Part shown: piece by piece, positions 4,358-15,472 of the stretch
Position numbering within the stretch: the stretch's first letter is position 1
Layout: every line of letters starts with the position of its first letter
Origin: an uncultured Candidatus Saccharibacteria bacterium
GTDB lineage: Bacteria > Patescibacteriota > Minisyncoccia > Phycocordibacterales > UBA9973
Assembly (NCBI GenBank): GCA_964348725.1
Contig: CAYGDG010000005.1
Span: forward strand, 1 to 62,770
Length of the DNA: 62,770 nt
Reading direction: 5' to 3'
The notes under the pieces: model-generated
The model's input: only the letters and a program-made list of their open reading frames with translations
What the model was told of the DNA's origin: nothing
The model's database searches: none
Translations under genes and position numbers: made by a program

Positions 4358-5053
4358 TTATTGGCGATGAGACATGTCTTCACCGAGCTTGCTGATGAAG
4401 CGGGACGCATGGTCCTTGCCGCCGAGGCCGAACGCCAAAGCGCCAGCTACTGCGAACATGCCGATGATACCTGCAAAGAGTATCTGCATATAAGCTGCAG
4501 CTACGCCGAGCTGGCCGAGAGCGATGATGAAAGCGAAAACCCACACAGCATACTTGGCGATAGTGCCGAGCATATTTGCAGAGCGGAGATTCATAGCTTT
4601 GCTACCCGCAGTCACCGCGCGAGAAAGCGCTTCAGCTACGATGGTAGCGATGATGAGGATGAGGGCTGCCACGATAACTCTCGGGAGGAAAATAAGTACA
4701 TCTTCGCGGAGGAAGGTGGACACATAGTTCAGGCCGACGAGAGAAAGGGATGGAAGAAGGAAAATAACGATAACGAACCACTTCACAATCTGCCCTATAA
4801 AGTAGCCGCTGTTCAAGTTCATACCGGCGCGGCGAAGGAGATCGTCCATGCCGATGCTCTGGAAGAGCTTGTCCACTTTGAGCGCGCTGACGACGTGCTC
4901 AAAAGCGCGAGCAACCAAATTACCCAATACCCAGCCGATGACGAAGAGCACGATAGCGAGGATAAGGCGCGGAGCAAACTGGATAAAGCCCCACCACAGT
5001 TCCTGGAGGGATGCGTTGAATACGTCGCCCCAAGTAATCCAAATATTATTCAT
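4358..5053 (-). CDS. MscS-associated TM-helix repeat protein (CmpX-like)
   Basis: FAPRLILAIVLFVIGW and FLPRVIVAALILI repeats; ALAFGLGG end. Confidence 0.8.
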   Translation of the reverse strand: MNNIWITWGDVFNASLQELWWGFIQFAPRLILAIVLFVIGWVLGNLVARAFEHVVSALKVDKLFQSIGMDDLLRRAGMNLNSGYFIGQIVKWFVIVIFLLPSLSLVGLNYVSTFLREDVLIFLPRVIVAALILIIATIVAEALSRAVTAGSKAMNLRSANMLGTIAKYAVWVFAFIIALGQLGVAAAYMQILFAGIIGMFAVAGALAFGLGGKDHASRFISKLGEDMSHRQ

Positions 5054-5123: not shown

Positions 5124-5167
5124 ATTATATCAATTTCCTAGCTCTTTTTGAGGAGATGTGTGGATAA
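5124..5167 (-). promoter_or_regulatory. Promoter with DnaA-type box (TTATCCACA-29 bp-TATAAT)
   Basis: Box at 5159-5167 lies inside the upstream gene's 3' end; -10 at 5124-5129. Confidence 0.65.
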
Positions 5168-5719
5168 CTCTTTATGCTGTAATACCACTTCATGAGGAAA
5201 ATCCAATATATCCCGCACGAGCTTGTCGTACATATTGAGCCTATAAATGAAGTCTTTTGTCTCGAAATCCGCATAGGTCAGTTCCGCTCCTGTGTCAGCT
5301 TCCAGCTTCTTTATTCCCTCTTCGATCTTGCTCTTTTTCAGTCTATCTCCCACAATGAGAAGATCTACTCTGCTTTCCTTATTTTTGATGAATACGCCGG
5401 AAATAACCAGCAATTTTACCCGCCCGGCTTTTTTGAATACTTCGCTTATGCCCTCTTTGTTAAAAGCTTCGGTGTGAGTCAAGATCGCTTCGAATTCGGA
5501 TGCGTATTTGAAGGAAGGATTAAAAGCATGACCTTCACTGCGTTTCTTTATAAAGCCTGCGGCGGAAAGGATCTTGAGTTCCGCACGCGCGGCAGCGGAA
5601 GAAACTCGGCTGCGATTGGTCACTTCCTTGCCAGAGAAGACTTTGCTGCGATTCAGCATAAAGAGGCGCATTATCTTCACGCGCGCCGGCGAACCTAATA
5701 CTTTTCCCAAGATTTCCAT
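5138..5719 (-). CDS. Winged-helix protein with C-terminal nucleotidyltransferase-like domain
   Basis: GSPARVKIMRLF N-terminal HTH; SG.F......VDLLIVGD motif; start refined to MEILG. Confidence 0.7.
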   Translation of the reverse strand: MEILGKVLGSPARVKIMRLFMLNRSKVFSGKEVTNRSRVSSAAARAELKILSAAGFIKKRSEGHAFNPSFKYASEFEAILTHTEAFNKEGISEVFKKAGRVKLLVISGVFIKNKESRVDLLIVGDRLKKSKIEEGIKKLEADTGAELTYADFETKDFIYRLNMYDKLVRDILDFPHEVVLQHKELSTHLLKKS

Positions 5720-5752
5720 ATCGGGGCTATTATACAACAATTAAAATTGTAC

Positions 5753-5792
5753 GCAACAAAAAACCCCGACGTACGTCGGGGTTTTTTGTTGC
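5753..5792. terminator. Bidirectional intrinsic terminator downstream of rplL
   Basis: Perfect 40-bp palindrome GCAACAAAAAACCCCGACGT|ACGTCGGGGTTTTTTGTTGC. Confidence 0.85.
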
Positions 5793-5894
5793 GCAAGAAT
5801 ATTATTTCAATTCTACCTGGCCACACATAAATTTCTGCTGAAATTTTGCGCAGCCCCCGCCTCAGCGCCGTCGCGCTTCCGGCTCAAAGTTGAG

Positions 5895-6260
5895 CTATTT
5901 AAGCTCAACTTTGCCTCCTGCTTCTTCGATCTTCTTCTTCATTTCTTCAGCTTCGGCTTTCTTCATACCGTCCTTGAGTTTTACCGGAGCGCCGTCCACG
6001 AGGTCTTTCGCTTCCTTAAGTCCGAGAGCGAGCGCTTCCTTGATGACTTTCATCACCGCGATCTTCTGCTCACCAGCGGATGCGAGGTGCACTTCAAATG
6101 CATCCTTTTCCTCTGCCGCTGGGCCTGCTGCTGCAGGACCTGCTGCTGCGACTGCCGCAGCGGATACTCCGAACTTTTCTTCTATAGCCTTCACCAAGTC
6201 GTTGAGTTCAAGGACTGATGCGCTTTCCAAGTCTGCCATAAATGCGTCAAATTTTGCCAT
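5895..6260 (-). CDS. rplL: 50S ribosomal protein L7/L12
   Basis: [22 protein letters not shown]; [14 protein letters not shown]; GGKVELK. Confidence 0.98.
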
Positions 6261-6300
6261 AATAATTTATTGTTATTTTTATAAGTTAATAATTTTTCTT

Positions 6301-6780
6301 CTACTTCTTTTTTGATACTTCGGAAACTGCGATAGCCAAGCGCTGTATCGGGCTCTTGAGCAAGAATGCAATCTTGGACAAAAGAACTTCACGGCTCGGG
6401 ATGGTGGCGATTTCCATCATCTTTTCGCCTTGCACGAATTTTCCTTCAAAGATACCGCCGAGAATCTTGAGCATTCCCTTGTGGGTCTTCTCAAAATTAT
6501 AGACTTCTCTTGCTGGCGCGATCTCATCCGTGGAATACGCGATGGCTACTTCTCCGGAAAGATCCGGGATCTCACCTTCCGCTTTTCCTGCGAGCGCGCG
6601 CTTTAAGAGCGTCTTTCGGGACACGGTGTATGATACGCCGTTGTTACGAAGATCCCTCCGTAGATTCGTCGCTTCGCCTGCCGGCAAGCCGTGGAAATTT
6701 ACGAAGACCAAAGTCTCCGCTCCGTCCACTGCCTTGGACAGGTCTTTTACTATTTCTTCTTTTCTTGATTTTAATAGCAT
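6301..6780 (-). CDS. rplJ: 50S ribosomal protein L10
   Basis: FVNFHGL...LRRDLR...VSRKTLLKRAL; IPSREVLLSKI; adjacent to rplL; start refined to MLLKSRK. Confidence 0.95.
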   Translation of the reverse strand: MLLKSRKEEIVKDLSKAVDGAETLVFVNFHGLPAGEATNLRRDLRNNGVSYTVSRKTLLKRALAGKAEGEIPDLSGEVAIAYSTDEIAPAREVYNFEKTHKGMLKILGGIFEGKFVQGEKMMEIATIPSREVLLSKIAFLLKSPIQRLAIAVSEVSKKK

Positions 6781-6799
6781 GTTGTTTTGTTTAAAATAA

Positions 6800-6880
6800 A
6801 AAACGGCCTTGCAGCCGCAAAAATACCGTTCGACCACTGAGTAGGATTTAAAGGTATGCCCAACCTACTTTCTTTGCGGT
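6800..6880 (-). promoter_or_regulatory. L10 leader-like autoregulatory RNA with attenuator hairpin
   Basis: AAAGAAAGTAGG...TAAATCCTACTCAGTGG resembles the L10-binding kink-turn motif; followed by CGGC-TGCAA-GGCCG and a U tract; promoter TTGCAA-17-TATGAT upstream. Confidence 0.7.
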
Positions 6881-6898
6881 ATGTGTATCATAGCACGA

Positions 6899-7054
6899 TT
6901 ATTCTGTGCTTGCAACTGCTCCCTCCTGCGGACCCCAGATGAGGGATTGCGCATCGCTGTCATCAAAATACGAAGAGAGGAATATGCCGAGAAGCCCCAA
7001 CCCTATCATGATTGAAAATACTGTCAGAACTTTCCAAAAATGCTTCGTAACCAT
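6899..7054 (-). CDS. Small single-pass membrane protein (51 aa, below the ORF-track cutoff)
   Basis: MVTKHFWKVLTVFSIMIGLGLLGIFLSSYF...; TATAAT 7 nt upstream of ATG. Confidence 0.65.
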   Translation of the reverse strand: MVTKHFWKVLTVFSIMIGLGLLGIFLSSYFDDSDAQSLIWGPQEGAVASTE

Positions 7055-7107
7055 GTAAGTAATTATACCATACATTCATGCCACCCCGCGGAAGTGTTTT
7101 TAATAAC

Positions 7108-7155
7108 ATGCCAAGAACAAAAAATCCCCTTACGGGGATTTTTTGTTCTTGGCAT
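7108..7155. terminator. Intrinsic terminator T2 (copy a)
   Basis: 22-bp perfect arms around TTAC; core AAAAATCCCCTTACGGGGATTTTT repeated at 8376-8409. Confidence 0.85.
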
Positions 7156-7637
7156 TATTTCTGAATCAGAATCGTAGCCACATTCTGCGAGGAATCGCAG
7201 TCTATGAGCCATGTGGCCGGCACCGTAGAGCTTGAAAGCTTTACGATTTTGAAACCATAGCCCTTGATAGTGAATGTACTGCCGAGCTTCACAGTGCGAG
7301 TAACGGCAGAACGATTGTCTACCATGATGCTTGAGCCATTCTTGAAGGTCGCGGCATTCGGATGCGCTTGGCATACAGTATCCAACTGTATCCTTCTGTC
7401 CTTATACAATACCAAGGCCTCCTTGTAAGAAAGAAGCTTTGCAGGAGCAGTGGCGGCGGCTGGGGCGTTCACACTGCCTTCAGTCGTATCTTCCACGGAT
7501 TCCACTTCAGCCTGTTCTTCAGAGGATGGCTCACTTATTTTCGGTTCATCCTTCTTGTTAGCTGACCAGATTACAATTGCGAGTACAAGCACGAGGGCGG
7601 CTACGATGGCGATGACAGTGCTCTTATTTTTTTCCAT
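7155..7637 (-). CDS. Membrane-anchored hypothetical protein, beta-rich C-terminal domain
   Basis: TM helix at residues ~8-24, acidic linker. Confidence 0.75.
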   Translation of the reverse strand: MEKNKSTVIAIVAALVLVLAIVIWSANKKDEPKISEPSSEEQAEVESVEDTTEGSVNAPAAATAPAKLLSYKEALVLYKDRRIQLDTVCQAHPNAATFKNGSSIMVDNRSAVTRTVKLGSTFTIKGYGFKIVKLSSSTVPATWLIDCDSSQNVATILIQK

Positions 7638-7746
7638 ATATTTTTCTTTTTCCTCTTAGGGCATTTGGTTGATAATACTTAGTATAGCACACATACCAGG
7701 CAACAAATCAAAAACCACCCCTCATAGTCCATCGCTGATGATGGAC

Positions 7747-7783
7747 TTTTGGAAAGCTTTGACAGCTTTCAGGGTAGCATTGC
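7747..7783 (-). repeat. 37-bp fragment of a peptidoglycan-binding-domain coding sequence (copy 1)
   Basis: TTTTGGAAAGCTTTGACAGCTTTCAGGGTAGCATTGC identical within copies at 8438-8608 and 9315-9485. Confidence 0.9.
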
Positions 7784-7810
7784 TTCCGCGAGGACTGTCC
7801 TTGCGGAAGC
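7782..7810. repeat. REP-like palindrome family A (AGG-ACAGT-CCT core)
   Basis: GCTTCCGCGAGG-ACTGT-CCTTGCGGAAGC. Confidence 0.85.
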
Positions 7811-7921
7811 ACTTGCGAGAGTTGCGAGAACAGTTGACTTCTTTCCTTCTATTGCTGTACTAAAAATGTGCTTGTGGGGCGCCAGCCCTATTCGGCTAAT
7901 ACATAAGCCGAAGGCAAGCAT

Positions 7922-7957
7922 AAGAAAAAATCCGCCTTCTAAGGCGGATTTTTTCTT
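7922..7957. terminator. Intrinsic terminator T1 (copy a)
   Basis: AAAAAATCCGCCTT-CT-AAGGCGGATTTTTT; related copy at 9234-9260. Confidence 0.8.
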
Positions 7958-7990
7958 TAATCTTCTTCGGGATTACCTTTCATGGTAGAG

Positions 7991-8021
7991 TGCTTGCGCA
8001 AGGACAGTCCTTGCGCAAGCA
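7991..8021. repeat. REP-like palindrome family A
   Basis: TGCTTGCGCAAGG-ACAGT-CCTTGCGCAAGCA, 13-bp arms. Confidence 0.9.
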
Positions 8022-8022
8022 A

Positions 8023-8304
8023 TTAAACTACCAAAGGAACTCCAAAAACCTTTGTTTCTAAAGTTTCAATTCTTTTATCATGATTATCCATAACTACTTG
8101 GGTCAAATCATCTATTTTTCCATTAGTTTTATCAAAATTTTCCCGAGTTTCAAGCTTAAAATCCCGCAAATTAGTTTTGACTTGTTCTAAATCAACCTTG
8201 GTAGCCATAGTAGTATCTTCTACACGTGAAAGTCTTTCCTCCACACGGGTGAAACCATTATTTATGGCTTCTAAGAGTTCTATATTTGTTATTTCCTCTT
8301 TCAT
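8023..8304 (-). CDS. Coiled-coil hypothetical protein
   Basis: MKEEITNIELLEAINNGF...MATKVDL...HDKRIETLE; TATACT 7 nt upstream of ATG. Confidence 0.7.
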   Translation of the reverse strand: MKEEITNIELLEAINNGFTRVEERLSRVEDTTMATKVDLEQVKTNLRDFKLETRENFDKTNGKIDDLTQVVMDNHDKRIETLETKVFGVPLVV

Positions 8305-8375
8305 ATTTATAAGTATATCAAACTCTGTTTTCTTTGCAAACCTCACCCCTGCCCTCTCCTGAAAAGGAGAGGGTG

Positions 8376-8409
8376 AAAACAAAAATCCCCTTACGGGGAT
8401 TTTTGTTTT
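8376..8409. terminator. Intrinsic terminator T2 (copy b)
   Basis: Same core as 7108-7155. Confidence 0.8.
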
Positions 8410-8437
8410 TGTGGAATTACCACATGAGAGGACAGAT

Positions 8438-8647
8438 TTACATCCCCATCAGCTTCGCGCGGGATTTTGATCCGAAGATGCCGTCCGCCGTGAGGCCTTT
8501 TGCTTTTTGGAAAGCTTTGACAGCTTTCAGGGTAGCATTGCCGAAGATAGTGGTTTCCATGCCTGGAGATCCTGCTCCGCTTACGGAGACAGTAAATCCT
8601 GCGGCATTCAGCATCTTTTGCATGCATTTCACCTGCTCATTCTTCAC
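8438..8647 (-). pseudogene. Stand-alone peptidoglycan-binding domain (copy 2); small gene or fragment
   Basis: VKCMQKMLN..G......GSPGMET..FGNATLKAVKAFQK..GL.ADGIFG.KSRA, paralogous to the S-layer N-terminus; no signal peptide. Confidence 0.6.
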
Positions 8648-8683
8648 GCCTTCAGAGCATCCTGCGACAGAACATGCTTCAAG

Positions 8684-9007
8684 TTAAAACTTGTATAATT
8701 TATTCCAAACTGAAACTGTCTGCTTTTTATCGCCAATAGAAAGAACCCCAAGCTGTCTTTGTAAATCTGCTTTTCTTAAAGTGGCAACTTTTGCCAATCT
8801 CACCCACGAATCAAGCAATAATCCCGATTGTTTCCAATTTTTAATTTTAGTATCTCCTTTGCCAGTCCGCTCAGCGCTTGTTATCGGCGCAAGCACAATA
8901 TCATCATCTCCAATATCCAGAACGACAAGAGCTGGGCGTTTTTTCTTATTCCCGTCTGTTTGATGAAAAGTAGCGAAAACAATATCGCCAAATTTATATT
9001 TGGTCAT
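8684..9007 (-). CDS. PemK/MazF family toxin
   Basis: YKFGDIV...F.QTDG.KKKRPALVV...DIVLAPITS; start refined to MTKYKF. Confidence 0.9.
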   Translation of the reverse strand: MTKYKFGDIVFATFHQTDGNKKKRPALVVLDIGDDDIVLAPITSAERTGKGDTKIKNWKQSGLLLDSWVRLAKVATLRKADLQRQLGVLSIGDKKQTVSVWNKLYKF

Positions 9008-9185
9008 AAATTTCGTCAGATTTACTGTAAGATTTAAAAAACTTATCTTTAGCGGCTCTTTTCCATAAATGTTCGTCATCTTCAACCATCTTTAAGTGCT
9101 TCAAAAGACTCTCGTACTGCAAGCGAGGGACGAGCATGAGGTCTTTTTCTTTTATTAGATTGTGGGGAATTGTTATCGTGGTCAT
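8994..9185 (-). CDS. Putative antitoxin paired with PemK
   Basis: 63 aa, overlaps the toxin start by 14 nt; TATAAT 6 nt upstream of ATG. Confidence 0.7.
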   Translation of the reverse strand: MTTITIPHNLIKEKDLMLVPRLQYESLLKHLKMVEDDEHLWKRAAKDKFFKSYSKSDEIYDQI

Positions 9186-9233
9186 ACGTTCATTATACCA
9201 AACACTCTATTTTTCTGCAAATTCTAGAAGTAG

Positions 9234-9260
9234 CAAAAATCCGCCTTCCGGCGGATTTTG
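9234..9260. terminator. Intrinsic terminator T1 (copy b)
   Basis: AAAAATCCGCC-TTCC-GGCGGATTTT. Confidence 0.75.
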
Positions 9261-9314
9261 TGCTTTATTTGATTTTATTCCTAGCAACTAGAACCTAGCC
9301 GCTAGAAACTAATC

Positions 9315-9485
9315 TTACATCCCCATCAGCTTCGCGCGGGACTTTGATCCGAAGATGCCGTCCGCGGTGAGGCCTTTTGCTTTTTGGAAAGCTTTGACAG
9401 CTTTCAGGGTAGCATTGCCGAAGAGAGTGGTTTCCATGCCTGGAGATCCGGCTCCACTTACGGAGACAGTAAATCCTGCGGCATT
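9315..9485 (-). pseudogene. 5'-truncated peptidoglycan-binding-domain fragment (copy 3)
   Basis: 171 bp, 5 mismatches versus 8438-8608, no start codon, capped by a family A palindrome. Confidence 0.8.
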
Positions 9486-9515
9486 GCTTCCGCAAGGACA
9501 GTCCTTGCGGAAGCA
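9485..9515. repeat. REP-like palindrome family A
   Basis: TGCTTCCGCAAGG-ACAGT-CCTTGCGGAAGCA. Confidence 0.9.
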
Positions 9516-9526
9516 GGAAATTAAGA

Positions 9527-11056
9527 TTACATTTCCAGCATGACGTTCATCTTTGCGCGAGACTTTGCGCCGAAGATGCCGTCAGCTTTGAGGCCGTTCT
9601 CTTTCTGGAAGAGTTTGATAGCGGCTTCGGTCTTTCCACCCCACTTGCCGTCAACGACGAGCAGCTTAGAAAGCTTCATAGCAAGGACTTTATTCAAGGC
9701 CTCCTGCAAGTGCATGACATTCGCTTTTGAACTTTTCTTAGTGACAGTCATAGTGATTACAGATACTGAACCGTCTGAATCGATAACAGTGACAGTAGGA
9801 ATAGTCGGGGTACCAGTCACTACTAGCTGCGCCAATGCGTCAGCAGTAACAGGAATTGAATTGATCGTCAGACCCGGATTAGCAGTGGTAGTTGTTGTAT
9901 TTGTAGTAGTCGTAGTTACGGTAGTACCGGTAGTAGAAGCATCCTCCACTGGATTTGAACCTACAACTGGAGTTCCTATGGTAGTAAATGTCCAGGAAAA
10001 AGGCATGCCGTACAAGCTATTTAAACCAGCTGCTGCATCCGTAGCAGCTGAAATTGTCGCTGTATATGTCTCATGATGAGGGAATGAGCTGTGTGCTAAA
10101 CTTACGGTCTTATCACCATTTGACCATGTGGGAGTGTAAGTAACTACAGGACTTGTGGCGAATGTGAGCGAACCAGTCGTCATTGGTTCAGAGAAAATGA
10201 CAGAAAGCGCACTTGTCCTGCTTATTCCTTTCGCAGTATCTGTAGGGGTAAGCGTGACAGCTATCGGTAGAGCGGAGTCAGCCAACGTCAGAGAAGACTT
10301 TGTAGGCACATCATTCAATGCTCCGTCTTCCAAACCATTGCCAGGCTGGGTGTAGGTGACTACAGGCAATGTAGCACCACCGGTAGTGTTTACCGTACCT
10401 GGGGTAGCCAAAGTTATAGTAAATGTAGAGGTGCCGTTTGTGGCGCAAGAGTCAGATGCGTTACGAGCGATTACTACAGTACCTGCAGTGTTTACTGTCA
10501 TGTCCACGTTACCAGTATATGCTGTACAAACCATACCGGTATCAGCAGTAGTCGTATATATTATGCGGTCTACAGCACCGTTATTGTTGTTGTCAGTAAA
10601 TACTCCAGTGAGGATGACTGGGGCCGCTCCGTCTGTAATAGACTGAGAAGCTTTTGCAGTCATTACCCCAGAAGTCAAAGTAACGCTTCCTGCTGTTCCT
10701 ACGTTTGCATAACTAATGATTGGAGCAGTAGATCCTCCAGTTTCATTAGCATCAGCAGTGACTAGAATATCAAGGTTGGTATCAGAACCAGTGCAGCTGA
10801 GACCAGTAATAGCTACATTAATGGAGCCTGCTGTGTTTACGGTCCAGTCCCCTGCTTCATATGCACAAGCTGTGACATTTTCATCCATCACCCAGCGAAT
10901 TTTTTCAACAGTCCCGTTTGTGTTTGCATCCAAATATGCTTTAGTAACAATTGTGTTAGCTGCATGCACTTTGTTCACGGAAACTAAACCGAATGAAGCG
11001 AACGCCAAAGCGAAGACGAACGCTACTATGGAAACATTTTTGAAATATAATTTCAT
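9527..11056 (-). CDS. Secreted surface protein: two D-x-N-x-N-G repeats, Ig-like (Big_5-type) domain, Thr linker, C-terminal peptidoglycan-binding domain
   Basis: Signal peptide; DANTNG and DNNNNG repeats; FSEPM...FSWTFTT; DGKWGGKTEAAIKLFQKENGLKADGIFG. Confidence 0.8.
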   Translation of the reverse strand: MKLYFKNVSIVAFVFALAFASFGLVSVNKVHAANTIVTKAYLDANTNGTVEKIRWVMDENVTACAYEAGDWTVNTAGSINVAITGLSCTGSDTNLDILVTADANETGGSTAPIISYANVGTAGSVTLTSGVMTAKASQSITDGAAPVILTGVFTDNNNNGAVDRIIYTTTADTGMVCTAYTGNVDMTVNTAGTVVIARNASDSCATNGTSTFTITLATPGTVNTTGGATLPVVTYTQPGNGLEDGALNDVPTKSSLTLADSALPIAVTLTPTDTAKGISRTSALSVIFSEPMTTGSLTFATSPVVTYTPTWSNGDKTVSLAHSSFPHHETYTATISAATDAAAGLNSLYGMPFSWTFTTIGTPVVGSNPVEDASTTGTTVTTTTTNTTTTTANPGLTINSIPVTADALAQLVVTGTPTIPTVTVIDSDGSVSVITMTVTKKSSKANVMHLQEALNKVLAMKLSKLLVVDGKWGGKTEAAIKLFQKENGLKADGIFGAKSRAKMNVMLEM

Positions 11057-11116
11057 ATTTTATAATTAAAACTAATAAATAATAAGACCTTAAGCGCTTA
11101 TAGTAAGAGCATAGAT

Positions 11117-11160
11117 ATTATAACAAATACAGCACTGTAAGCCCACTTAATTGTGGATAA
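11117..11160 (-). promoter_or_regulatory. Promoter with DnaA-type box (TTATCCACA-29 bp-TATAAT)
   Basis: Box 11152-11160, -10 at 11117-11122. Confidence 0.7.
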
Positions 11161-11182
11161 CCCTGTACTGCGCCTTACAACA

Positions 11183-11212
11183 CAAAAACCACCCGAAAGG
11201 GGTGGTTTTTGT
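11183..11212. terminator. Terminator after the S-layer-like gene
   Basis: AAAAACCACCC-GAAA-GGGGTGGTTTTTG. Confidence 0.8.
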
Positions 11213-11254
11213 TGCGTTTTATAGTTCCGCTAAACTTAGCTCATTCTCTAAGAA

Positions 11255-14200
11255 TTAGAGAGCTGAGAAAGAAGCGTTGACTGGAAGACCGCTCGTAGGA
11301 AGACCAGTGATGGTATCCTGAGTGTCTCCGTCTACATTTCCGTCATAACCGAGATCAGTCTCAGCTACGCTGTAGTCTATATCACCCAAAGCGGCAACAC
11401 CGAACGCTACGTTGTCCCCAGTAGCAACTGTGCCAGCTGAGAGATAGACCGTAATGTACTTGTATGAACCGCCGGAGATGGTAAAGCTTGAATCAAGAGA
11501 ACCGAAGTCTACGACGTTTGCTGAGTTATCAGTTCCATCGTTGTCAACCAAGGTGCTCAAGTAAGTGTTACCGTTCTCGTTGGATGAGTAGAGATTGTAA
11601 GTCCAGTCTGTAGCGGTGTGTGCACCGTTATCAGAAAGCTTTACATCTGTGATCGTGACCGCAGCAGAGCCGTAGTTCATGATCTTGAAGCGTGCAAGCT
11701 GAGTACCAGCAGCAACTGTAAGAGATGTATCAGCAGTAGGATATGTTCCTACTACGTTTACATCAAACGGTACGATGTTGGTAACAACACCGTTGTTGTT
11801 TACGACTGCGCCAGCGTAAGCTGGAGCGGAAGCTGTGGTAACACCCTTAGCTATAAGGTCAGTACCGTCAGAGCTGAGGGTCATAGAGAAGCTATCACCA
11901 AGAGTAGCGATACCTGGGCTCTGAACATCAGCTTTTGTGTATACATTCACTGGAGTGTTTGGAGAAACCGTCATACCGGAAGGCAGGAGGTTGTCCGCGC
12001 TAGTCCAAGTGTAGGTGCATACGTTAGATGTGCAGCTTGCAAACTGCGGAGCAGTTGCAAAAAGCGTCATTGTGCCATTACCAGACTGAGCATAGAGCTC
12101 AATATTAGCGAGATCAGTTACCTTGAGAGTACCAGTTGCAACTACACCAGTAGTGGTAGAAGTTGAAGAGATATCACCCGTAGTGTTATCAGTGAAAGCA
12201 ACAGCAGCAGCAGCAACAGCGGCGTGCGTAGCGATCACATTAGCGCCAGTGCCAGAGAAAGCAATGTTTCCGTTAGCATCATTAGCGCCAGTGATAGCTC
12301 TCATCGCAGTAGCGATCAAAGCAGCAGTGTTGTTTGTTGTCCTATTGATTTCAGCAGCATCATCAGAGCAGTCTGAATCTTCAGAACCAGTTGTGGTTTC
12401 GAATTCGATTACACACTGGCCGATGGTTACATCTTCTTCGTCAGCAGGGACAGCGCCTACAGCAACAGTTCTAGTAGCGCGAATACCTGCGTTCGCGATA
12501 GCTTTCAAAGTCAAAGTAGTGACCTTCTGAGCCTCGTACTGTGAGTTAAGTCTGAAAGCAAAAGCAGTAACATCCTGAGAACCAATGTTTACGTTACGAG
12601 CTACAGAAGGGGTAGCATTTGTACCAGACAAGACTGAGCTTGTGAGGGTACCAGCAGCTACTACAGTCATAGCCTGTCCGGATCCAGTACCGACCTGGTT
12701 TGCCAGAGTGATGCTGTTTCCAGTATCCTTACCAGTCGCAGTAACATTCTCGTCAGCGATCTTGAAAGTGTGTGATACTCCTGTTGCGGAAATCACATCT
12801 CCATAGAGCTTGAGGGTTACTGGGGTGGTGCGGGTTACGTATACTGGGTTGCTCAAGTTGAAAGTAACAGTGTTTGCGTTAACAGATGTTGAAGAAGTAG
12901 TGGTAAGAACATTACCAGTTGCATCCTTCAATGTGAGGTTTGCAATACCAGAGTAGTCAACACCGGAACCGAGAGTGTCGGTTACAGTAATGCTAGAGAT
13001 GCGTACATCTTCACCAGAAGAAGTAGCGTCAAACTGGAAGTTTGCAAGCTCTACTCCGTTCGTGCCTGCAACTACAGAAGTAGCGACAGGGGTAGAAAGA
13101 GTAGTTACATTTATCTTAGCAGACTGTACAGCACGAGTGTATCCATCAATAGCACTGACTGAAGGGTCGGTGATATCGTTGGTAAGCAAGCGCTTTACAG
13201 AAGTGATGTCAAAATCATTTACGAAGTAAGAGTCGGAGCTGGTAGCAGAAGAGCTAACATCAGCGACTACTTCGATAGTGTTTTCAGCACCAGCGTTCAA
13301 GATCGGATATGAAGACAGTGAGCGGCTAGAAGCAGTACCAGCAGCTGGGAAGTTAGTGGTATTTGCTGCTGCGCTGAATACGATAGCGCCGTTCACCTTT
13401 ACATATACAGTACCAGTCAAGTTGACTGATCCTGCATTCTGATCAAGACCGAAAGAAATTGCACGGAGTTCCATGCTCTCTCCTATAGGCTTTGCGATGT
13501 ACTTCGCAAGCACAACGCCAGTTGCTCCTGGAGTTACTGCAGTTGAGGAAGAATCAGAAGCGCGAGTGAATACAAATGAACCGGAAGCAACAGTGACTTT
13601 GTTGTACACAGAAGTCGTGTCACCGATAGGGAACGTTGTATCAATTGCGCCAGCGGCAGTAGGGAGAAGTCCTGCGCTAGTGGTTACGCCACGAACATCA
13701 ATATCATAGTCATTGTAAACTACAAACTGGATCGTGCGAGATGCGCCAGCGACGATTTTAGCTCTGACCCAGAAATCCTTAGTCTGACCTTTTGTGATCG
13801 AGTAAGGAGCAGTGAGTACGAACTGTACGTTCTGGCCGTTTGGCTGTGCGGTTGCAAGGATATTGCCTGCTGAATCAACAAGTTGTACGTCCTTGTAATC
13901 GGTAGCGGAAGCATTTCCGTTGTTCCAAAGAGTCAAGCCGTAGAGCTTAACATCTTCGTTGCTGGAAGTTTCCTGGATGCGGAATTTTGAAATGTCCTGA
14001 GAAGCGTTTGCATCAGCATTCAAGCTTGCGCCTGTGGAGTTAACAGGAAGCACGTCTACAGTCACAGTAGCGACTGAGTTTGTTCCGTTAACTATGCTCA
14101 TCTGATTACCAACAATTGGGAAGCTGCTGGTAACAGTACCACCAGAAACCATAACATCGGTAGCAGAATTTACATTGAAGCCAACTGTTCCAGTGTCAGT

Positions 14201-14983
14201 ACCGCTGAGGTTAACTTTAACCCAAACAGTCTGAGTAGTACCAGCAGCAACCACGATAGGATCGGTGACAAAAGTCATCGTCGCTACACCGTTAGCTCCG
14301 AGGGAGGTAACAACGTTTCCATGGCGCACACCAGAACCGTCATATACGGAGACACCGGAAATATTGGTGTTTGCGTAATAGCCAGTCTTGGTGAGGTTAA
14401 GACCAGTGATGTTAACAGAACCAGTTGTGCCATTAGCAATGCTAAGAGCAAGAACAGGATTGTTAGCAGTCTTGGTAGCAACTACAGCTGAAGCTGGATT
14501 GGAAGAGCTTAAAGCTACGGTAACCATACCAGTTACTGGAACAGTCGTGCCGTTAGGAGCCATTGAGCAATTGCTTGCCAATGTCATACCGTTAGGGCAG
14601 AGGCTACCTGGGGTCGCTGGATTAGCGACTACAGTACCAGCAGCTACGAGAGCAGCGCGGGACTTTGCTCCAAAGATGCCGTCAGCAACGAGGCTGTTTG
14701 CAGCTTGGAAAGTCTTCACGGCAGCCAATGTTGCATTGCCGAAGTAAGTGGTCTCCTTACCAGCGGAGCCGGCACCAGTGCCGTCTACGTTGTAACCTTT
14801 TTCGTTAAGCATCTCTTGGAGACACTTAACTTCTGAATTCTTCATACCTTTTTTCAAGAAGGTCATGGAGAAAGATGCGCAGCTTGCAGCGTTAGCTGTA
14901 TTTGCGAGAGCGAAAGCTCCGACAAACATAACTGCGAGCATCATCACTCCAAGGAGGAATTTTGATGTAAATGAATTACTCAT
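11255..14983 (-). CDS. Large S-layer-like surface protein with N-terminal peptidoglycan-binding domain
   Basis: Signal peptide; EVKCLQEMLN...FGNATLAAVKTFQ...DGIFG; repeated Thr/Ser/Ala-rich beta-sandwich modules. Confidence 0.85.
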   Translation of the reverse strand: MSNSFTSKFLLGVMMLAVMFVGAFALANTANAASCASFSMTFLKKGMKNSEVKCLQEMLNEKGYNVDGTGAGSAGKETTYFGNATLAAVKTFQAANSLVADGIFGAKSRAALVAAGTVVANPATPGSLCPNGMTLASNCSMAPNGTTVPVTGMVTVALSSSNPASAVVATKTANNPVLALSIANGTTGSVNITGLNLTKTGYYANTNISGVSVYDGSGVRHGNVVTSLGANGVATMTFVTDPIVVAAGTTQTVWVKVNLSGTDTGTVGFNVNSATDVMVSGGTVTSSFPIVGNQMSIVNGTNSVATVTVDVLPVNSTGASLNADANASQDISKFRIQETSSNEDVKLYGLTLWNNGNASATDYKDVQLVDSAGNILATAQPNGQNVQFVLTAPYSITKGQTKDFWVRAKIVAGASRTIQFVVYNDYDIDVRGVTTSAGLLPTAAGAIDTTFPIGDTTSVYNKVTVASGSFVFTRASDSSSTAVTPGATGVVLAKYIAKPIGESMELRAISFGLDQNAGSVNLTGTVYVKVNGAIVFSAAANTTNFPAAGTASSRSLSSYPILNAGAENTIEVVADVSSSATSSDSYFVNDFDITSVKRLLTNDITDPSVSAIDGYTRAVQSAKINVTTLSTPVATSVVAGTNGVELANFQFDATSSGEDVRISSITVTDTLGSGVDYSGIANLTLKDATGNVLTTTSSTSVNANTVTFNLSNPVYVTRTTPVTLKLYGDVISATGVSHTFKIADENVTATGKDTGNSITLANQVGTGSGQAMTVVAAGTLTSSVLSGTNATPSVARNVNIGSQDVTAFAFRLNSQYEAQKVTTLTLKAIANAGIRATRTVAVGAVPADEEDVTIGQCVIEFETTTGSEDSDCSDDAAEINRTTNNTAALIATAMRAITGANDANGNIAFSGTGANVIATHAAVAAAAVAFTDNTTGDISSTSTTTGVVATGTLKVTDLANIELYAQSGNGTMTLFATAPQFASCTSNVCTYTWTSADNLLPSGMTVSPNTPVNVYTKADVQSPGIATLGDSFSMTLSSDGTDLIAKGVTTASAPAYAGAVVNNNGVVTNIVPFDVNVVGTYPTADTSLTVAAGTQLARFKIMNYGSAAVTITDVKLSDNGAHTATDWTYNLYSSNENGNTYLSTLVDNDGTDNSANVVDFGSLDSSFTISGGSYKYITVYLSAGTVATGDNVAFGVAALGDIDYSVAETDLGYDGNVDGDTQDTITGLPTSGLPVNASFSAL

Positions 14984-15231
14984 AATTATTATTAATTTGC
15001 ATGCGCGTTAATTTGTTAGTTTCGACGTGCGCCGGTTTGTAATCCGGTGCACAACTAAGTTGCGCATATTTTATCAATCATCCCCTTTTTAATAAGAGAT
15101 GATTAGATATCTAAAATCTACTAATCGTTGAACACAAAAAACTATTTTATTTTCAACGATCATGCCCGCCGAAGGCGGACAAGTGTACGGCGAAACGCGA
15201 AAAAAAATTCGCGCCTTCCGAACACAGCTCC

Positions 15232-15276
15232 ATTATAATATGCCTGTAAATAACAGGGCAAATATAATGTGGATAA
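15232..15276 (-). promoter_or_regulatory. Promoter with DnaA-type box (TTATCCACA-30 bp-TATAAT) and ~240-nt leader
   Basis: Box 15268-15276, -10 at 15232-15237. Confidence 0.7.
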
Positions 15277-15472
15277 CTCATGCTTTTCAGCACGATTTAC
15301 CTGAAGCCTATATTCGCATATTTCAGGCGCAAATGCAACCTGTACAAATAGGAAGACTTCACTATATATAACGTATCAAAAGGAGGTATATTTCAGGTTT
15401 TTTACCGCACCACAGATTGTCTACTTTGCCAAGAAATAGCGGCTCCCCGCCACAGGCGGGCAGGCACCGCTT

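What the first reader, a model, noticed from the sequence alone, without database searches (positions are those of the whole stretch)
5124..15276. Three envelope-gene promoters have a perfect DnaA-type box at a fixed distance from the -10 element
On the minus strand TTATCCACA is followed by TATAAT after 29 bp (5167 to 5124, MscS-like gene), 29 bp (11160 to 11117, 509-aa surface protein) and 30 bp (15276 to 15232, S-layer-like protein). All have the same orientation, lack a clear TTGACA, and drive leadered transcripts, unlike most genes here. These were the only perfect boxes I noticed. TTATCCACA is the established DnaA-box consensus, and a site just upstream of -35 is a typical activator position. 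Inference: a promoter class coupling cell-surface synthesis to DnaA or to another factor with the same motif.
Basis: partly seen in the sequence, partly recalled or inferred. Interest (0 to 1): 0.75.

Follow-up and report, generated by a model that had tools for sequence, protein, structure and literature searches.

The report
DnaA-box promoter class in a CPR bacterium
A perfect binding site for the replication initiator DnaA sits just upstream of the core promoter of about ten conserved genes (surface proteins, cell division, secretion, SOS, RNA polymerase) in this ultra-small bacterium and its relatives, so DnaA probably doubles as a transcription factor there, though no binding or transcript data exist.

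Summary
The window holds three perfect TTATCCACA boxes, all on the minus strand, followed by TATAAT after 29, 29 and 30 nt (0 of 100 shuffles match this).

The element is real and conserved:
- The extended 10-mer GTTATCCACA is about 12 times commoner than its backwards control across 31 genomes of the genus.
- In this genome 10 of 16 boxes lie in the 10% of DNA that is intergenic.
- The pattern box-N20-36-TATAAT occurs 85 times, against 1 control, in 41 related genomes.
- Orthologous promoters keep the box while their flanks diverge.

The class is not specific to the envelope. It also covers mraZ, a lexA operon, secA, rpoB and dnaA, with one-mismatch boxes at ftsA and ribonucleotide reductase.

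The spacing is a window of 28-33 nt rather than a fixed value. That puts the box 5-10 nt upstream of the -35. Secondary classes lie about 10 and 21 nt further out, which suggests one helix face.

DnaA is the best candidate reader. Its base-contacting residues are conserved and the same boxes mark dnaA promoters. A domain-IV-only paralogue exists in this genome alone.

The boxes are single, unlike the paired sites bound in E. coli. Activation is inferred, not shown. I rate this a new variant of known DnaA transcriptional control.

The parts
15268..15277 (-). Box 3, GTTATCCACA, upstream of the 1242-aa PG-binding surface-protein gene
   Evidence: The box is invariant in all 11 aligned genus promoters while the upstream flank is not conserved.
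15256..15261 (-). -35-like hexamer TTGCCC, 6 nt after box 3 and 18 nt before the -10
   Evidence: TTGCCC-18-TATAAT, 10 of 12 matches. ATTG is conserved.
15232..15237 (-). -10 hexamer TATAAT, 30 nt after box 3
   Evidence: It is invariant.
14984..15225 (-). Long 5' leader (about 240 nt) of the 1242-aa gene, with blocks conserved across the genus
   Evidence: One search shows conserved blocks, for example GGTCATTGAAAA and AAATACGC-TTTTAGTT. Hairpins are visible. The transcription start is inferred, not mapped.
11255..14983 (-).
   Evidence: Orthologues of 1115-1247 aa sit behind the same promoter in G007, G329 and G013.
11183..11210 (-). Intrinsic terminator of the 1242-aa gene, 23 nt upstream of box 2
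   Evidence: 13-bp stem and a T run.
11152..11161 (-). Box 2, GTTATCCACA, upstream of the 509-aa gene
   Evidence: A box sits at the syntenic position in G007, G329 and G013.
11117..11125 (-). Extended -10 TGTTATAAT, with TATAAT 29 nt after box 2
9527..11056 (-). Gene for a 509-aa Big_5 + PG_binding_1 protein
5159..5168 (-). Box 1, GTTATCCACA, upstream of the MS-channel-like gene and inside the last codons of ORF 5138-5740
   Evidence: It is kept in 8 of 14 genus genomes searched. The codons TTA TCC ACA do not vary at synonymous sites although neighbouring codons do (rows for G003, G005, G012, G019, G020, G021, G022, G024).
5124..5132 (-). Extended -10 TGATATAAT, with TATAAT 29 nt after box 1
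   Evidence: The same TGn-TATAAT lies at 28-29 nt in relatives.
4358..5053 (-). Gene for a 231-aa mechanosensitive-channel-like membrane protein
   Evidence: MS_channel_1st_1, 52 bits; NCBIfam 'msc', 79 bits, below its cut-off.
5138..5740 (-). Upstream 200-aa ORF of unknown family whose 3' end contains box 1
   Evidence: No Pfam match.

Best explanation
GTTATCCACA is a cis-regulatory element of a conserved promoter class. I propose that one monomer of the replication initiator DnaA binds it through domain IV. The box ends 28-33 nt upstream of the -10 hexamer, which is 5-10 nt upstream of the -35. It therefore covers roughly -44 to -53 and always points towards the promoter. In a few promoters it sits one or two helical turns further upstream.

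From that position DnaA would touch RNA polymerase (alpha C-terminal domain or sigma region 4) and most likely help recruit it. This would link a small regulon to the amount or state of DnaA, that is to the replication cycle. The regulon comprises two peptidoglycan-binding surface proteins, an MS-channel-like protein, mraZ and the division cluster, lexA, secA, rpoB and probably ftsA and ribonucleotide reductase.

At dnaA itself in this genome the perfect box is inverted and lies in the -35/-10 spacer, which is the classical layout for autorepression.

Shown: the motif, its enrichment, its position and orientation, its conservation, and the conservation of DnaA's DNA-contact residues. Inferred: that DnaA is the binder, that the TATAAT hexamers are the promoters in use, and that the effect is activation.
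For: (1) Enrichment.
- The window has 3 boxes, each with TATAAT 29-30 nt downstream; 0 of 100 shuffles give any.
- The genome has 16 perfect boxes, and 10 lie in the 10.4% that is intergenic. Four hundred 9-mers of the same composition give a mean of 0.75 and a maximum of 7; binomial P = 6e-7.
- GTTATCCACA occurs 249 times against 20 backwards controls in 31 genus genomes.
- Box-N20-36-TATAAT occurs 85 times against 1 control in 41 relatives.

(2) Conservation in orthologous promoters.
- The box is kept at lexA in 10 of 14 genomes, secA in 9, the MS-channel gene in 8 and mraZ in 7.
- In the surface-protein promoter, the box, -35 and -10 are invariant in 11 genomes while the upstream flank is not.
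- The three boxed promoters of the window are syntenic in G007, G329 and G013.
- Box 1 does not vary at synonymous codon positions.

(3) Geometry.
- In the genus the spacing peaks at 28-29, 31-33 and 39-41 nt.
- The tandem boxes at dnaA lie 42 and 53 nt from the -10.
- In 298 genomes of other genera of the phylum there are 3.8 hits per position at 26-34 nt, 1.06 at 36-66 nt and 0.35 in the control.
- Where a canonical TTGACA is present (lexA, rpoB), the box lies 6-10 nt upstream of it. The box is therefore neither the -35 nor an operator overlapping it.

- The genome has one dnaA.
- In the alignment to the E. coli domain IV-DNA complex 1J1V, the RQ, P and DHTTxxH positions are conserved.
- The same boxes sit in dnaA promoters and in dnaA-dnaN spacers of the genus, including pairs 2 bp apart as at sites bound in E. 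coli (PMC11317965).
- The flank gag-TTATCCACA-g matches the in-vivo-bound E. coli sites listed in PMC11317965.
- The only other protein with a DnaA domain IV is absent from 40 relatives that keep the promoter class.

(5) Regulon content. It resembles known DnaA regulons (dnaA, nrd, ftsZ, SOS/repair genes), as reviewed in PMC8203912.
Against:
- The class boxes are single. No second box lies 2-3 bp upstream or downstream. In E. coli almost all sites bound in vivo are pairs, and only 13 of 32 consensus single boxes lie in bound regions.
- A 28-33 nt spread is about half a helical turn, which is loose for an activator that depends strictly on helix face.
- Some boxes do not fit the layout. They are inverted, directly abut a tRNA gene, or have no promoter downstream, as at C11:34951.
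- A consensus box should be occupied at all DnaA levels, which weakens the idea that it senses the cell cycle.
- The surface-protein gene also has a conserved promoter-like site upstream of the box (TTGCAT-17-GAATAT). The box could act there as a roadblock.
- My gene calls are crude longest-ORF calls.
Confidence: 0.6

Rival explanations
1. Something other than DnaA reads the motif. It could be an unidentified transcription factor, or part of RNA polymerase itself, as a sequence-specific equivalent of an UP element contacted by the alpha C-terminal domain. The identity with the DnaA box would then be coincidence or mimicry.
For: - The box occupies the place of the proximal UP-element subsite and precedes strongly expressed genes such as rpoB, secA, a major surface protein and tRNA regions.
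- The boxes are single, unlike E. coli's in-vivo DnaA sites.
- This genome does hold a second protein with a DnaA domain IV, of 211 aa.
Against: - The paralogue is absent from all 40 relatives that keep the class.
- The motif matches the universal DnaA box at 9 of 9 positions and also in its flanks.
- It marks dnaA promoters and the dnaA-dnaN spacers.
- UP elements are A/T tracts read in the minor groove, not a CCACA core.
- No candidate factor gene carries the box except dnaA, and lexA and mraZ, whose own operators are different and are also present.
Confidence: 0.18
2. The boxes serve mainly as a chromosomal reservoir of high-affinity DnaA sites that buffers free DnaA for replication control, like datA and other titration boxes. 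Their place next to promoters would be secondary, for example because intergenic DNA tolerates them.
For: - Perfect consensus boxes are the type bound whatever the nucleotide state.
- Titration by chromosomal boxes is proposed for E. coli (abstract of PMC12371093, seen).
- There are about 8 to 20 such boxes per genome of 0.6-0.9 Mb.
Against: - Titration needs no fixed orientation or distance to the -10, yet both are constrained in the genus and across the phylum.
- The same orthologous promoters keep the box.
- The box is even kept inside a coding 3' end at the correct distance from the next promoter.
Confidence: 0.1
3. DnaA binds the box but represses or dampens these promoters instead of activating them. 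It could exclude the alpha C-terminal domain, nucleate an ATP-DnaA oligomer over the promoter, or block transcription from promoters further upstream.
For: - DnaA is a repressor at many known targets: dnaA, and nrdAB at high ATP-DnaA.
- lexA and rpoB have near-consensus core promoters that need no activator.
- There is a conserved promoter-like site upstream of the box in the surface-protein region.
Against: - The box lies outside the -35 to +1 core in the class. At dnaA in this genome, where repression is expected, it lies inside the spacer and is inverted.
- Two of the window's promoters lack any -35 match, which is typical of promoters that depend on an activator.
- No weaker boxes extend from the strong box over the promoter.
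Confidence: 0.25

Closest known systems
DnaA-regulated promoters of E. coli (dnaA, nrdAB, polA, purH, mioC, uvrB/DARS1; ChIP-seq regulon, PMC11317965)
   Same: - The same 9-mer with the same flanks (g-TTATCCACA-g).
- The sites lie upstream of target genes.
- Targets include dnaA, ribonucleotide reductase and a gene co-regulated with LexA.
- The dnaA promoters of genus relatives carry pairs of boxes 2 bp apart, as in E. coli.
   Different: - The class boxes here are single, whereas E. coli binding in vivo needs pairs.
- Here the box has one orientation and a narrow distance to the -10.
- The targets extend to surface proteins, mraZ, secA and rpoB.
Caulobacter crescentus and Bacillus subtilis DnaA regulons (gcrA, ftsZ, mipZ, nrd; sda, dnaA-dnaN and others; reviewed in PMC8203912)
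   Same: DnaA links replication to cell-division and cell-cycle genes. Here mraZ and the division cluster, and ftsA, carry boxes.
   Different: B. subtilis targets are clusters of several boxes (PMC4447404). No stereotyped single box at about -47 is described for those systems. Nothing here has been tested experimentally.
Monomeric activators with asymmetric sites whose orientation depends on distance from the -35 (MarA/SoxS/Rob marbox promoters)
   Same: As recalled from my own knowledge, a single asymmetric site sits next to or just upstream of the -35, with fixed orientation and limited spacing, and acts with weak -35 elements.
   Different: The protein family and motif are unrelated. This is an analogy of mechanism only and was not tested.
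UP element (alpha C-terminal domain site, -40 to -60)
   Same: It occupies the same position relative to the core promoter and is associated with strong promoters.
   Different: UP elements are A/T-rich tracts. This is a specific motif with a C-rich core, identical to the DnaA box.

Membership tests
DnaA box (binding site of DnaA domain IV) | Matches the 9-mer consensus TTATCCACA (TTATNCACA) | tested here: met
   Three 9-of-9 matches in the window and 16 in the genome. The 5' G and 3' purine or C flanks match E. coli bound sites.
DnaA box (binding site of DnaA domain IV) | The organism encodes DnaA with intact base-contacting residues in domain IV | tested here: met
   There is one dnaA. The alignment to 1J1V keeps the R-Q, P and D-H-T-T-x-x-H positions. 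Which residues contact bases is recalled from the 1J1V literature.
DnaA box (binding site of DnaA domain IV) | The same motif occurs at oriC or the dnaA promoter of the same lineage | tested here: met
   Boxes flank dnaA in G000. They also sit in dnaA promoters and dnaA-dnaN spacers of 8 of 11 relatives inspected. The oriC boxes of G000 are degenerate (TTATCCCCA).
DnaA box (binding site of DnaA domain IV) | Demonstrated DnaA binding (EMSA, footprint, ChIP) | not testable with these tools
   No experimental data exist for this uncultured lineage.
DnaA-regulated promoter (DnaA regulon member) | The box lies in the promoter region and is conserved in orthologous promoters | tested here: met
DnaA-regulated promoter (DnaA regulon member) | Paired boxes 2-3 bp apart (the rule for in-vivo binding in E. 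coli, PMC11317965) | tested here: not met
   No second box at a 2-3 bp gap on either side of the class boxes. The rule is met only at dnaA promoters of relatives.
DnaA-regulated promoter (DnaA regulon member) | Transcription changes when DnaA level or state changes | not testable with these tools
UP element | A/T-rich tract at -40 to -60 contacted by the alpha C-terminal domain | tested here: not met
   The position fits, but the sequence is a specific CCACA-core motif rather than an A/T tract.
Activator-dependent promoter (class I/II type) | Poor -35 element compensated by a factor bound upstream | tested here: inconclusive
   This holds for the three window promoters. The lexA and rpoB members have TTGACA or TTGACT.

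The most novel reading that the evidence does not exclude
In Patescibacteria, and most strongly in this Paceibacteria-type genus, DnaA may have been recruited as a global, RNA-polymerase-contacting activator. It would act through single R1/R4-type boxes placed on one helix face, ending about 30, 41 or 52 nt upstream of the -10, in one orientation. This would tie division (mraZ, ftsA), secretion (secA), SOS control (lexA), RNA polymerase (rpoB) and the main cell-surface proteins to replication-initiation potential. In effect one protein would run a cell-cycle transcription programme in genomes with very few regulators.
Probability: 0.3. Interest if true: 0.75.

Novelty: new variant of a known kind. 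Interest (0 to 1): 0.58.

Why it matters
Gene regulation in the Candidate Phyla Radiation is almost unknown, because these bacteria are uncultured and encode few transcription factors. This promoter class gives a concrete hypothesis that can be tested: the replication initiator also sets expression of division, secretion, SOS and surface-protein genes.

It also gives a defined cis-element and a defined geometry. Both can be tested with recombinant DnaA, DAP-seq and in vitro transcription, without culturing the organism.

The class challenges the rule, derived from E. coli, that DnaA needs paired boxes in vivo. Here contact with RNA polymerase might replace the second DnaA molecule.

I found no published description of this in the paper library.

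Tried and rejected
G000 C9:13537-14169 encodes a 211-aa DnaA-domain-IV protein (PF08299, 53 bits). I rejected it as the general reader because it is absent from all 40 relatives, where only full-length DnaA matches. It has no match among solved structures.
- **Paired boxes as in E. coli.** No second box lies at a 2-3 bp gap downstream or upstream.
- **One duplicated promoter cassette.** Rejected: the three regions share only the box and the -10.
- **Box as -35 or as an operator overlapping it.** Rejected: lexA and rpoB have a separate TTGACA 6-10 nt downstream of the box.
- **Covarying 'palindrome' between box and -10 in the MS-channel promoter.** It is largely the coding 3' end of the upstream ORF (and reading).
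- **Shared leader motif AGGTCG.** It is not enriched in intergenic DNA of the genome: 27 hits against a mean of 28 for permuted 6-mers, and many hits are tRNA T-arms.
- **rRNA promoter.** It could not be examined because the rRNA operon is broken across contig ends.
- **Perfect box at C13:11066.** It encodes the conserved C-terminus of an OmpR-type regulator (LIHTVPGVGY). I set it aside as a probable coding coincidence.
Full report
**Observation.** The window contains exactly three perfect TTATCCACA 9-mers, at 5159-5167, 11152-11160 and 15268-15276, all on the minus strand. Each is followed by TATAAT after 29, 29 and 30 nt. No dinucleotide-preserving shuffle out of 100 produced even one such composite.

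Each box is preceded by G. Each points towards a gene:
- a 231-aa protein like a mechanosensitive channel (4358-5053);
- a 509-aa Big_5 + PG_binding_1 protein (9527-11056);
- a 1242-aa PG_binding_1 protein (11255-14983).

The -35 regions are poor: CTCAAA and TGGGCT, both with extended TGn-TATAAT, and TTGCCC with an 18-nt spacer. The predicted leaders are about 63, 53 and 241 nt. Outside the box and the -10 the three regions are unrelated.

**More than chance, and not only here.** The window is contig C5 of a 957-kb, 26-contig genome.
- The genome has 16 perfect boxes. By a crude longest-ORF gene call, 10 lie in the 10.4% that is intergenic. Four hundred 9-mers of the same composition average 0.75 intergenic hits with a maximum of 7; binomial P = 6e-7.
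- In 31 genomes of the same genus, GTTATCCACA occurs 249 times against 20 for the motif read backwards.
- GTTATCCACA-N20-36-TATAAT occurs 85 times against 1 control in 41 relatives. Fourteen of these hits are in 16 other families of the order.
- Across 301 genomes of the phylum, the pattern with N26-34 and TAHAAT occurs 80 times against 5 controls. Sixty-four of those hits lie outside the genus.

**Which genes.** In this genome the box with a downstream -10 precedes the following:
- mraZ, where MraZ-type GTGGG repeats flank the -10;
- a 65-aa ORF followed by a LexA-like S24 peptidase, with TTGACA, a GTGAAC-N4-GTTCAC LexA-type operator and TATACT;
- rpoB (TTGACT, then 16 nt, then TATACT);
- secA.

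One-mismatch boxes precede ftsA and the large subunit of ribonucleotide reductase.

At dnaA the perfect box is inverted. It lies between the -35 and -10 of a promoter whose -10 is 8 nt from the ATG, and a one-mismatch forward box lies 52 nt upstream of that -10. The class is therefore not an envelope class. It mixes surface, division, secretion, SOS, transcription and replication genes, which resembles published DnaA regulons (PMC8203912; PMC11317965).

**Conservation.** Among 14 genus genomes listed in full, the box is kept at the lexA operon in 10, secA in 9, the MS-channel gene in 8 and mraZ in 7.

In an alignment of 11 surface-protein promoters, the 11 columns GTTATCCACAT, the ATTG of the -35 and TATTATAAT are invariant, while the DNA upstream of the box does not align.

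The three boxed promoters of the window occur in the same order and at similar distances in G007, G329 and G013.

Box 1 lies in the last codons of the upstream ORF (…K-E-L-S-T…). In at least eight relatives the codons TTA-TCC-ACA never change at synonymous sites, although neighbouring codons do.

**Geometry.** In the genus, -10-like hexamers downstream of the box pile up at 28-29, 31-33 and 39-41 nt. By promoter family the spacings are:

| Promoter | Box-to-(-10) spacing (nt) |
|---|---|
| MS-channel gene | 28-29 |
| 509-aa gene | 28-29 |
| rpoB | 30 |
| surface-protein gene | 30-33 |
| lexA | 31-33 |
| mraZ | 31-32 |
| secA | 40-41 |

In relatives the tandem boxes at dnaA lie 42 and 53 nt from the -10.

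In 298 genomes of other genera there are 3.8 exact-TATAAT hits per position at 26-34 nt, with a maximum at 32. There are 1.06 per position at 36-66 nt, with a small rise at 40, and 0.35 in the control. Position 35 was not searched.

The spacing is therefore non-random but is a window, not a fixed number. The classes at roughly 30, 41 and 52 nt suggest one helix face. Orthologous families dominate the genus counts, so I treat the periodicity as suggestive only. Where a canonical -35 exists, the box ends 5-10 nt upstream of it. That puts the box at about -44 to -53.

**Who reads it.**
- The genome has one dnaA.
- In the alignment to the E. coli domain IV-DNA complex 1J1V, its C-terminal domain keeps the R-Q, P and D-H-T-T-x-x-H positions.
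- TTATCCACA-type boxes mark dnaA promoters and dnaA-dnaN spacers in the genus. They include pairs 2 bp apart, the arrangement that E. coli DnaA binds in vivo.
- The flanks (gag-TTATCCACA-g) match the E. coli bound sites tabulated in PMC11317965.

A second protein with a DnaA domain IV, 211 aa long, exists in this genome. It has no counterpart in 40 relatives that keep the promoter class, so it cannot be the general reader. DnaA is the most economical candidate.

**Caveats.**
- The class boxes are single. In E. coli single consensus boxes are often unbound in vivo.
- Some boxes are inverted, abut tRNA genes or lack a downstream promoter.
- A consensus box should be occupied at most DnaA levels.
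- The surface-protein region also has a conserved upstream promoter-like site, TTGCAT-17-GAATAT.

**Mechanism proposed.** A DnaA monomer on the box, oriented towards the promoter and next to the -35, contacts RNA polymerase and most likely helps recruit it. That contact would supply the cooperativity which a second DnaA provides in E. coli. Activation is favoured for two reasons. The site lies outside the core promoter, and two of the window's promoters lack any -35 match. In contrast, the dnaA promoter of this genome has the box inside the spacer, the layout of a repressor. This is inference. Repression or damping, another reader, and a titration role remain open.

**Novelty.** DnaA acting as a transcription factor is well known. 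What I did not find in the paper library is this combination:
- a stereotyped single-box architecture with fixed orientation at about -47;
- conservation across a CPR genus with traces across the phylum;
- a regulon that includes mraZ, lexA, secA, rpoB and the major surface proteins.

Earlier notes of this scan report similar modules in other Patescibacteria. I used them as leads only. My own phylum-wide search supports the spread. I class the finding as a new variant of a known kind.

Noticed in passing
G000 contig C9:13537-14169 (locus L033 1297-1932, + strand): A 211-aa protein that consists essentially of a DnaA domain IV helix-turn-helix (PF08299, 53 bits). It keeps R, D-H and H but has A in place of the first T of DHTT. 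It is present only in this genome among 41 relatives. It may be a strain-specific or mobile-element factor that reads or competes for DnaA boxes.
   Followed up: partly
window 14984-15225 (- strand) and loci L012, L018, L019, L021, L024, L027, L028, L046-L048: The 1242-aa surface-protein gene has a 240-330-nt 5' leader. Several blocks are conserved across the genus (GATTTCGTCGAAAAAATC, GGTCATTGAAAA, AAAATACGCTTTTAGTTTTGTCGAAACTAATTAA) and it contains hairpins. It may be a stabilising or regulatory leader, as known for S-layer mRNAs.
   Followed up: partly
window 15238-15267 (- strand) and genus orthologues: Between box and -10 of the surface-protein promoter lies an inverted repeat (ATATATTGC-loop-GCTATATAT) that spans the -35 and reaches the -10. 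Its inner bases covary between genomes: GCC/GGC, GTTC/GAAC, GCTCA/TGAGC, CCTGT/ACAGG. It could be the operator of a second regulator or a hairpin in transcripts from an upstream promoter. This is unexplained.
   Followed up: no
window about 15300-15340 (- strand); same position in L048, L018, L027, L028: A conserved promoter-like site (TTGCAT or TTGCTT, 17 nt, then GAATAT, GATACT or TAATAT) lies 40-70 nt upstream of box 3 on the same strand. The surface-protein gene may therefore have tandem promoters with the DnaA box between them.
   Followed up: no
window about 5095 and 11085 (- strand); G000 C3:24262, C12:27429, C8:29337; relatives: Leaders of several leadered genes carry (A)AGGTCG(A/G) 25-50 nt after the -10. 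The hexamer is not enriched in intergenic DNA overall, so this may be chance.
   Followed up: partly
G043:C4:12472-18631; G006:C16 and C20: In some relatives the box is immediately preceded by one and the same GC-rich hairpin, repeated before several neighbouring genes. Examples are CCAAGGGATGCCCTTGGATA-GTTATCCACA five times within 6 kb, and GAAGGCCTTGCCTTCTCCA-GTTATCCACA three times. This looks like a spreading terminator-plus-box cassette.
   Followed up: no
L046 (G007:C3) about 276-355 and L024 (G018:C6), upstream of the surface-protein box: A long hairpin (CGCACACTTAGTTTTACGA…TCGTAAAACTAAGTGTGCG) is flanked on both sides by GGGTTATCC. It looks like the insertion of a palindromic element with duplication of part of the box.
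   Followed up: no
G000 C3 (locus L001 747-981 and 2332-2603): The gene order is rnpA-yidD-yidC, then divergent dnaA, then dnaN. The dnaA-dnaN spacer has four degenerate boxes (TTATCCCCA twice, TTACCCACA, TTGTCCACA) around an AT-rich stretch and is a candidate oriC. The perfect boxes lie on the other side of dnaA, in its promoter.
   Followed up: partly
G000 C4:28707 and downstream 316-aa ORF: A one-mismatch box (GTTATCCACC) lies 33 nt before a TATAAT, ahead of a secreted protein. The C-terminus of that protein looks like a T9SS/Por sorting tail, as recalled from memory. That would be unexpected in a CPR genome, and the contig may be foreign or chimeric.
   Followed up: no
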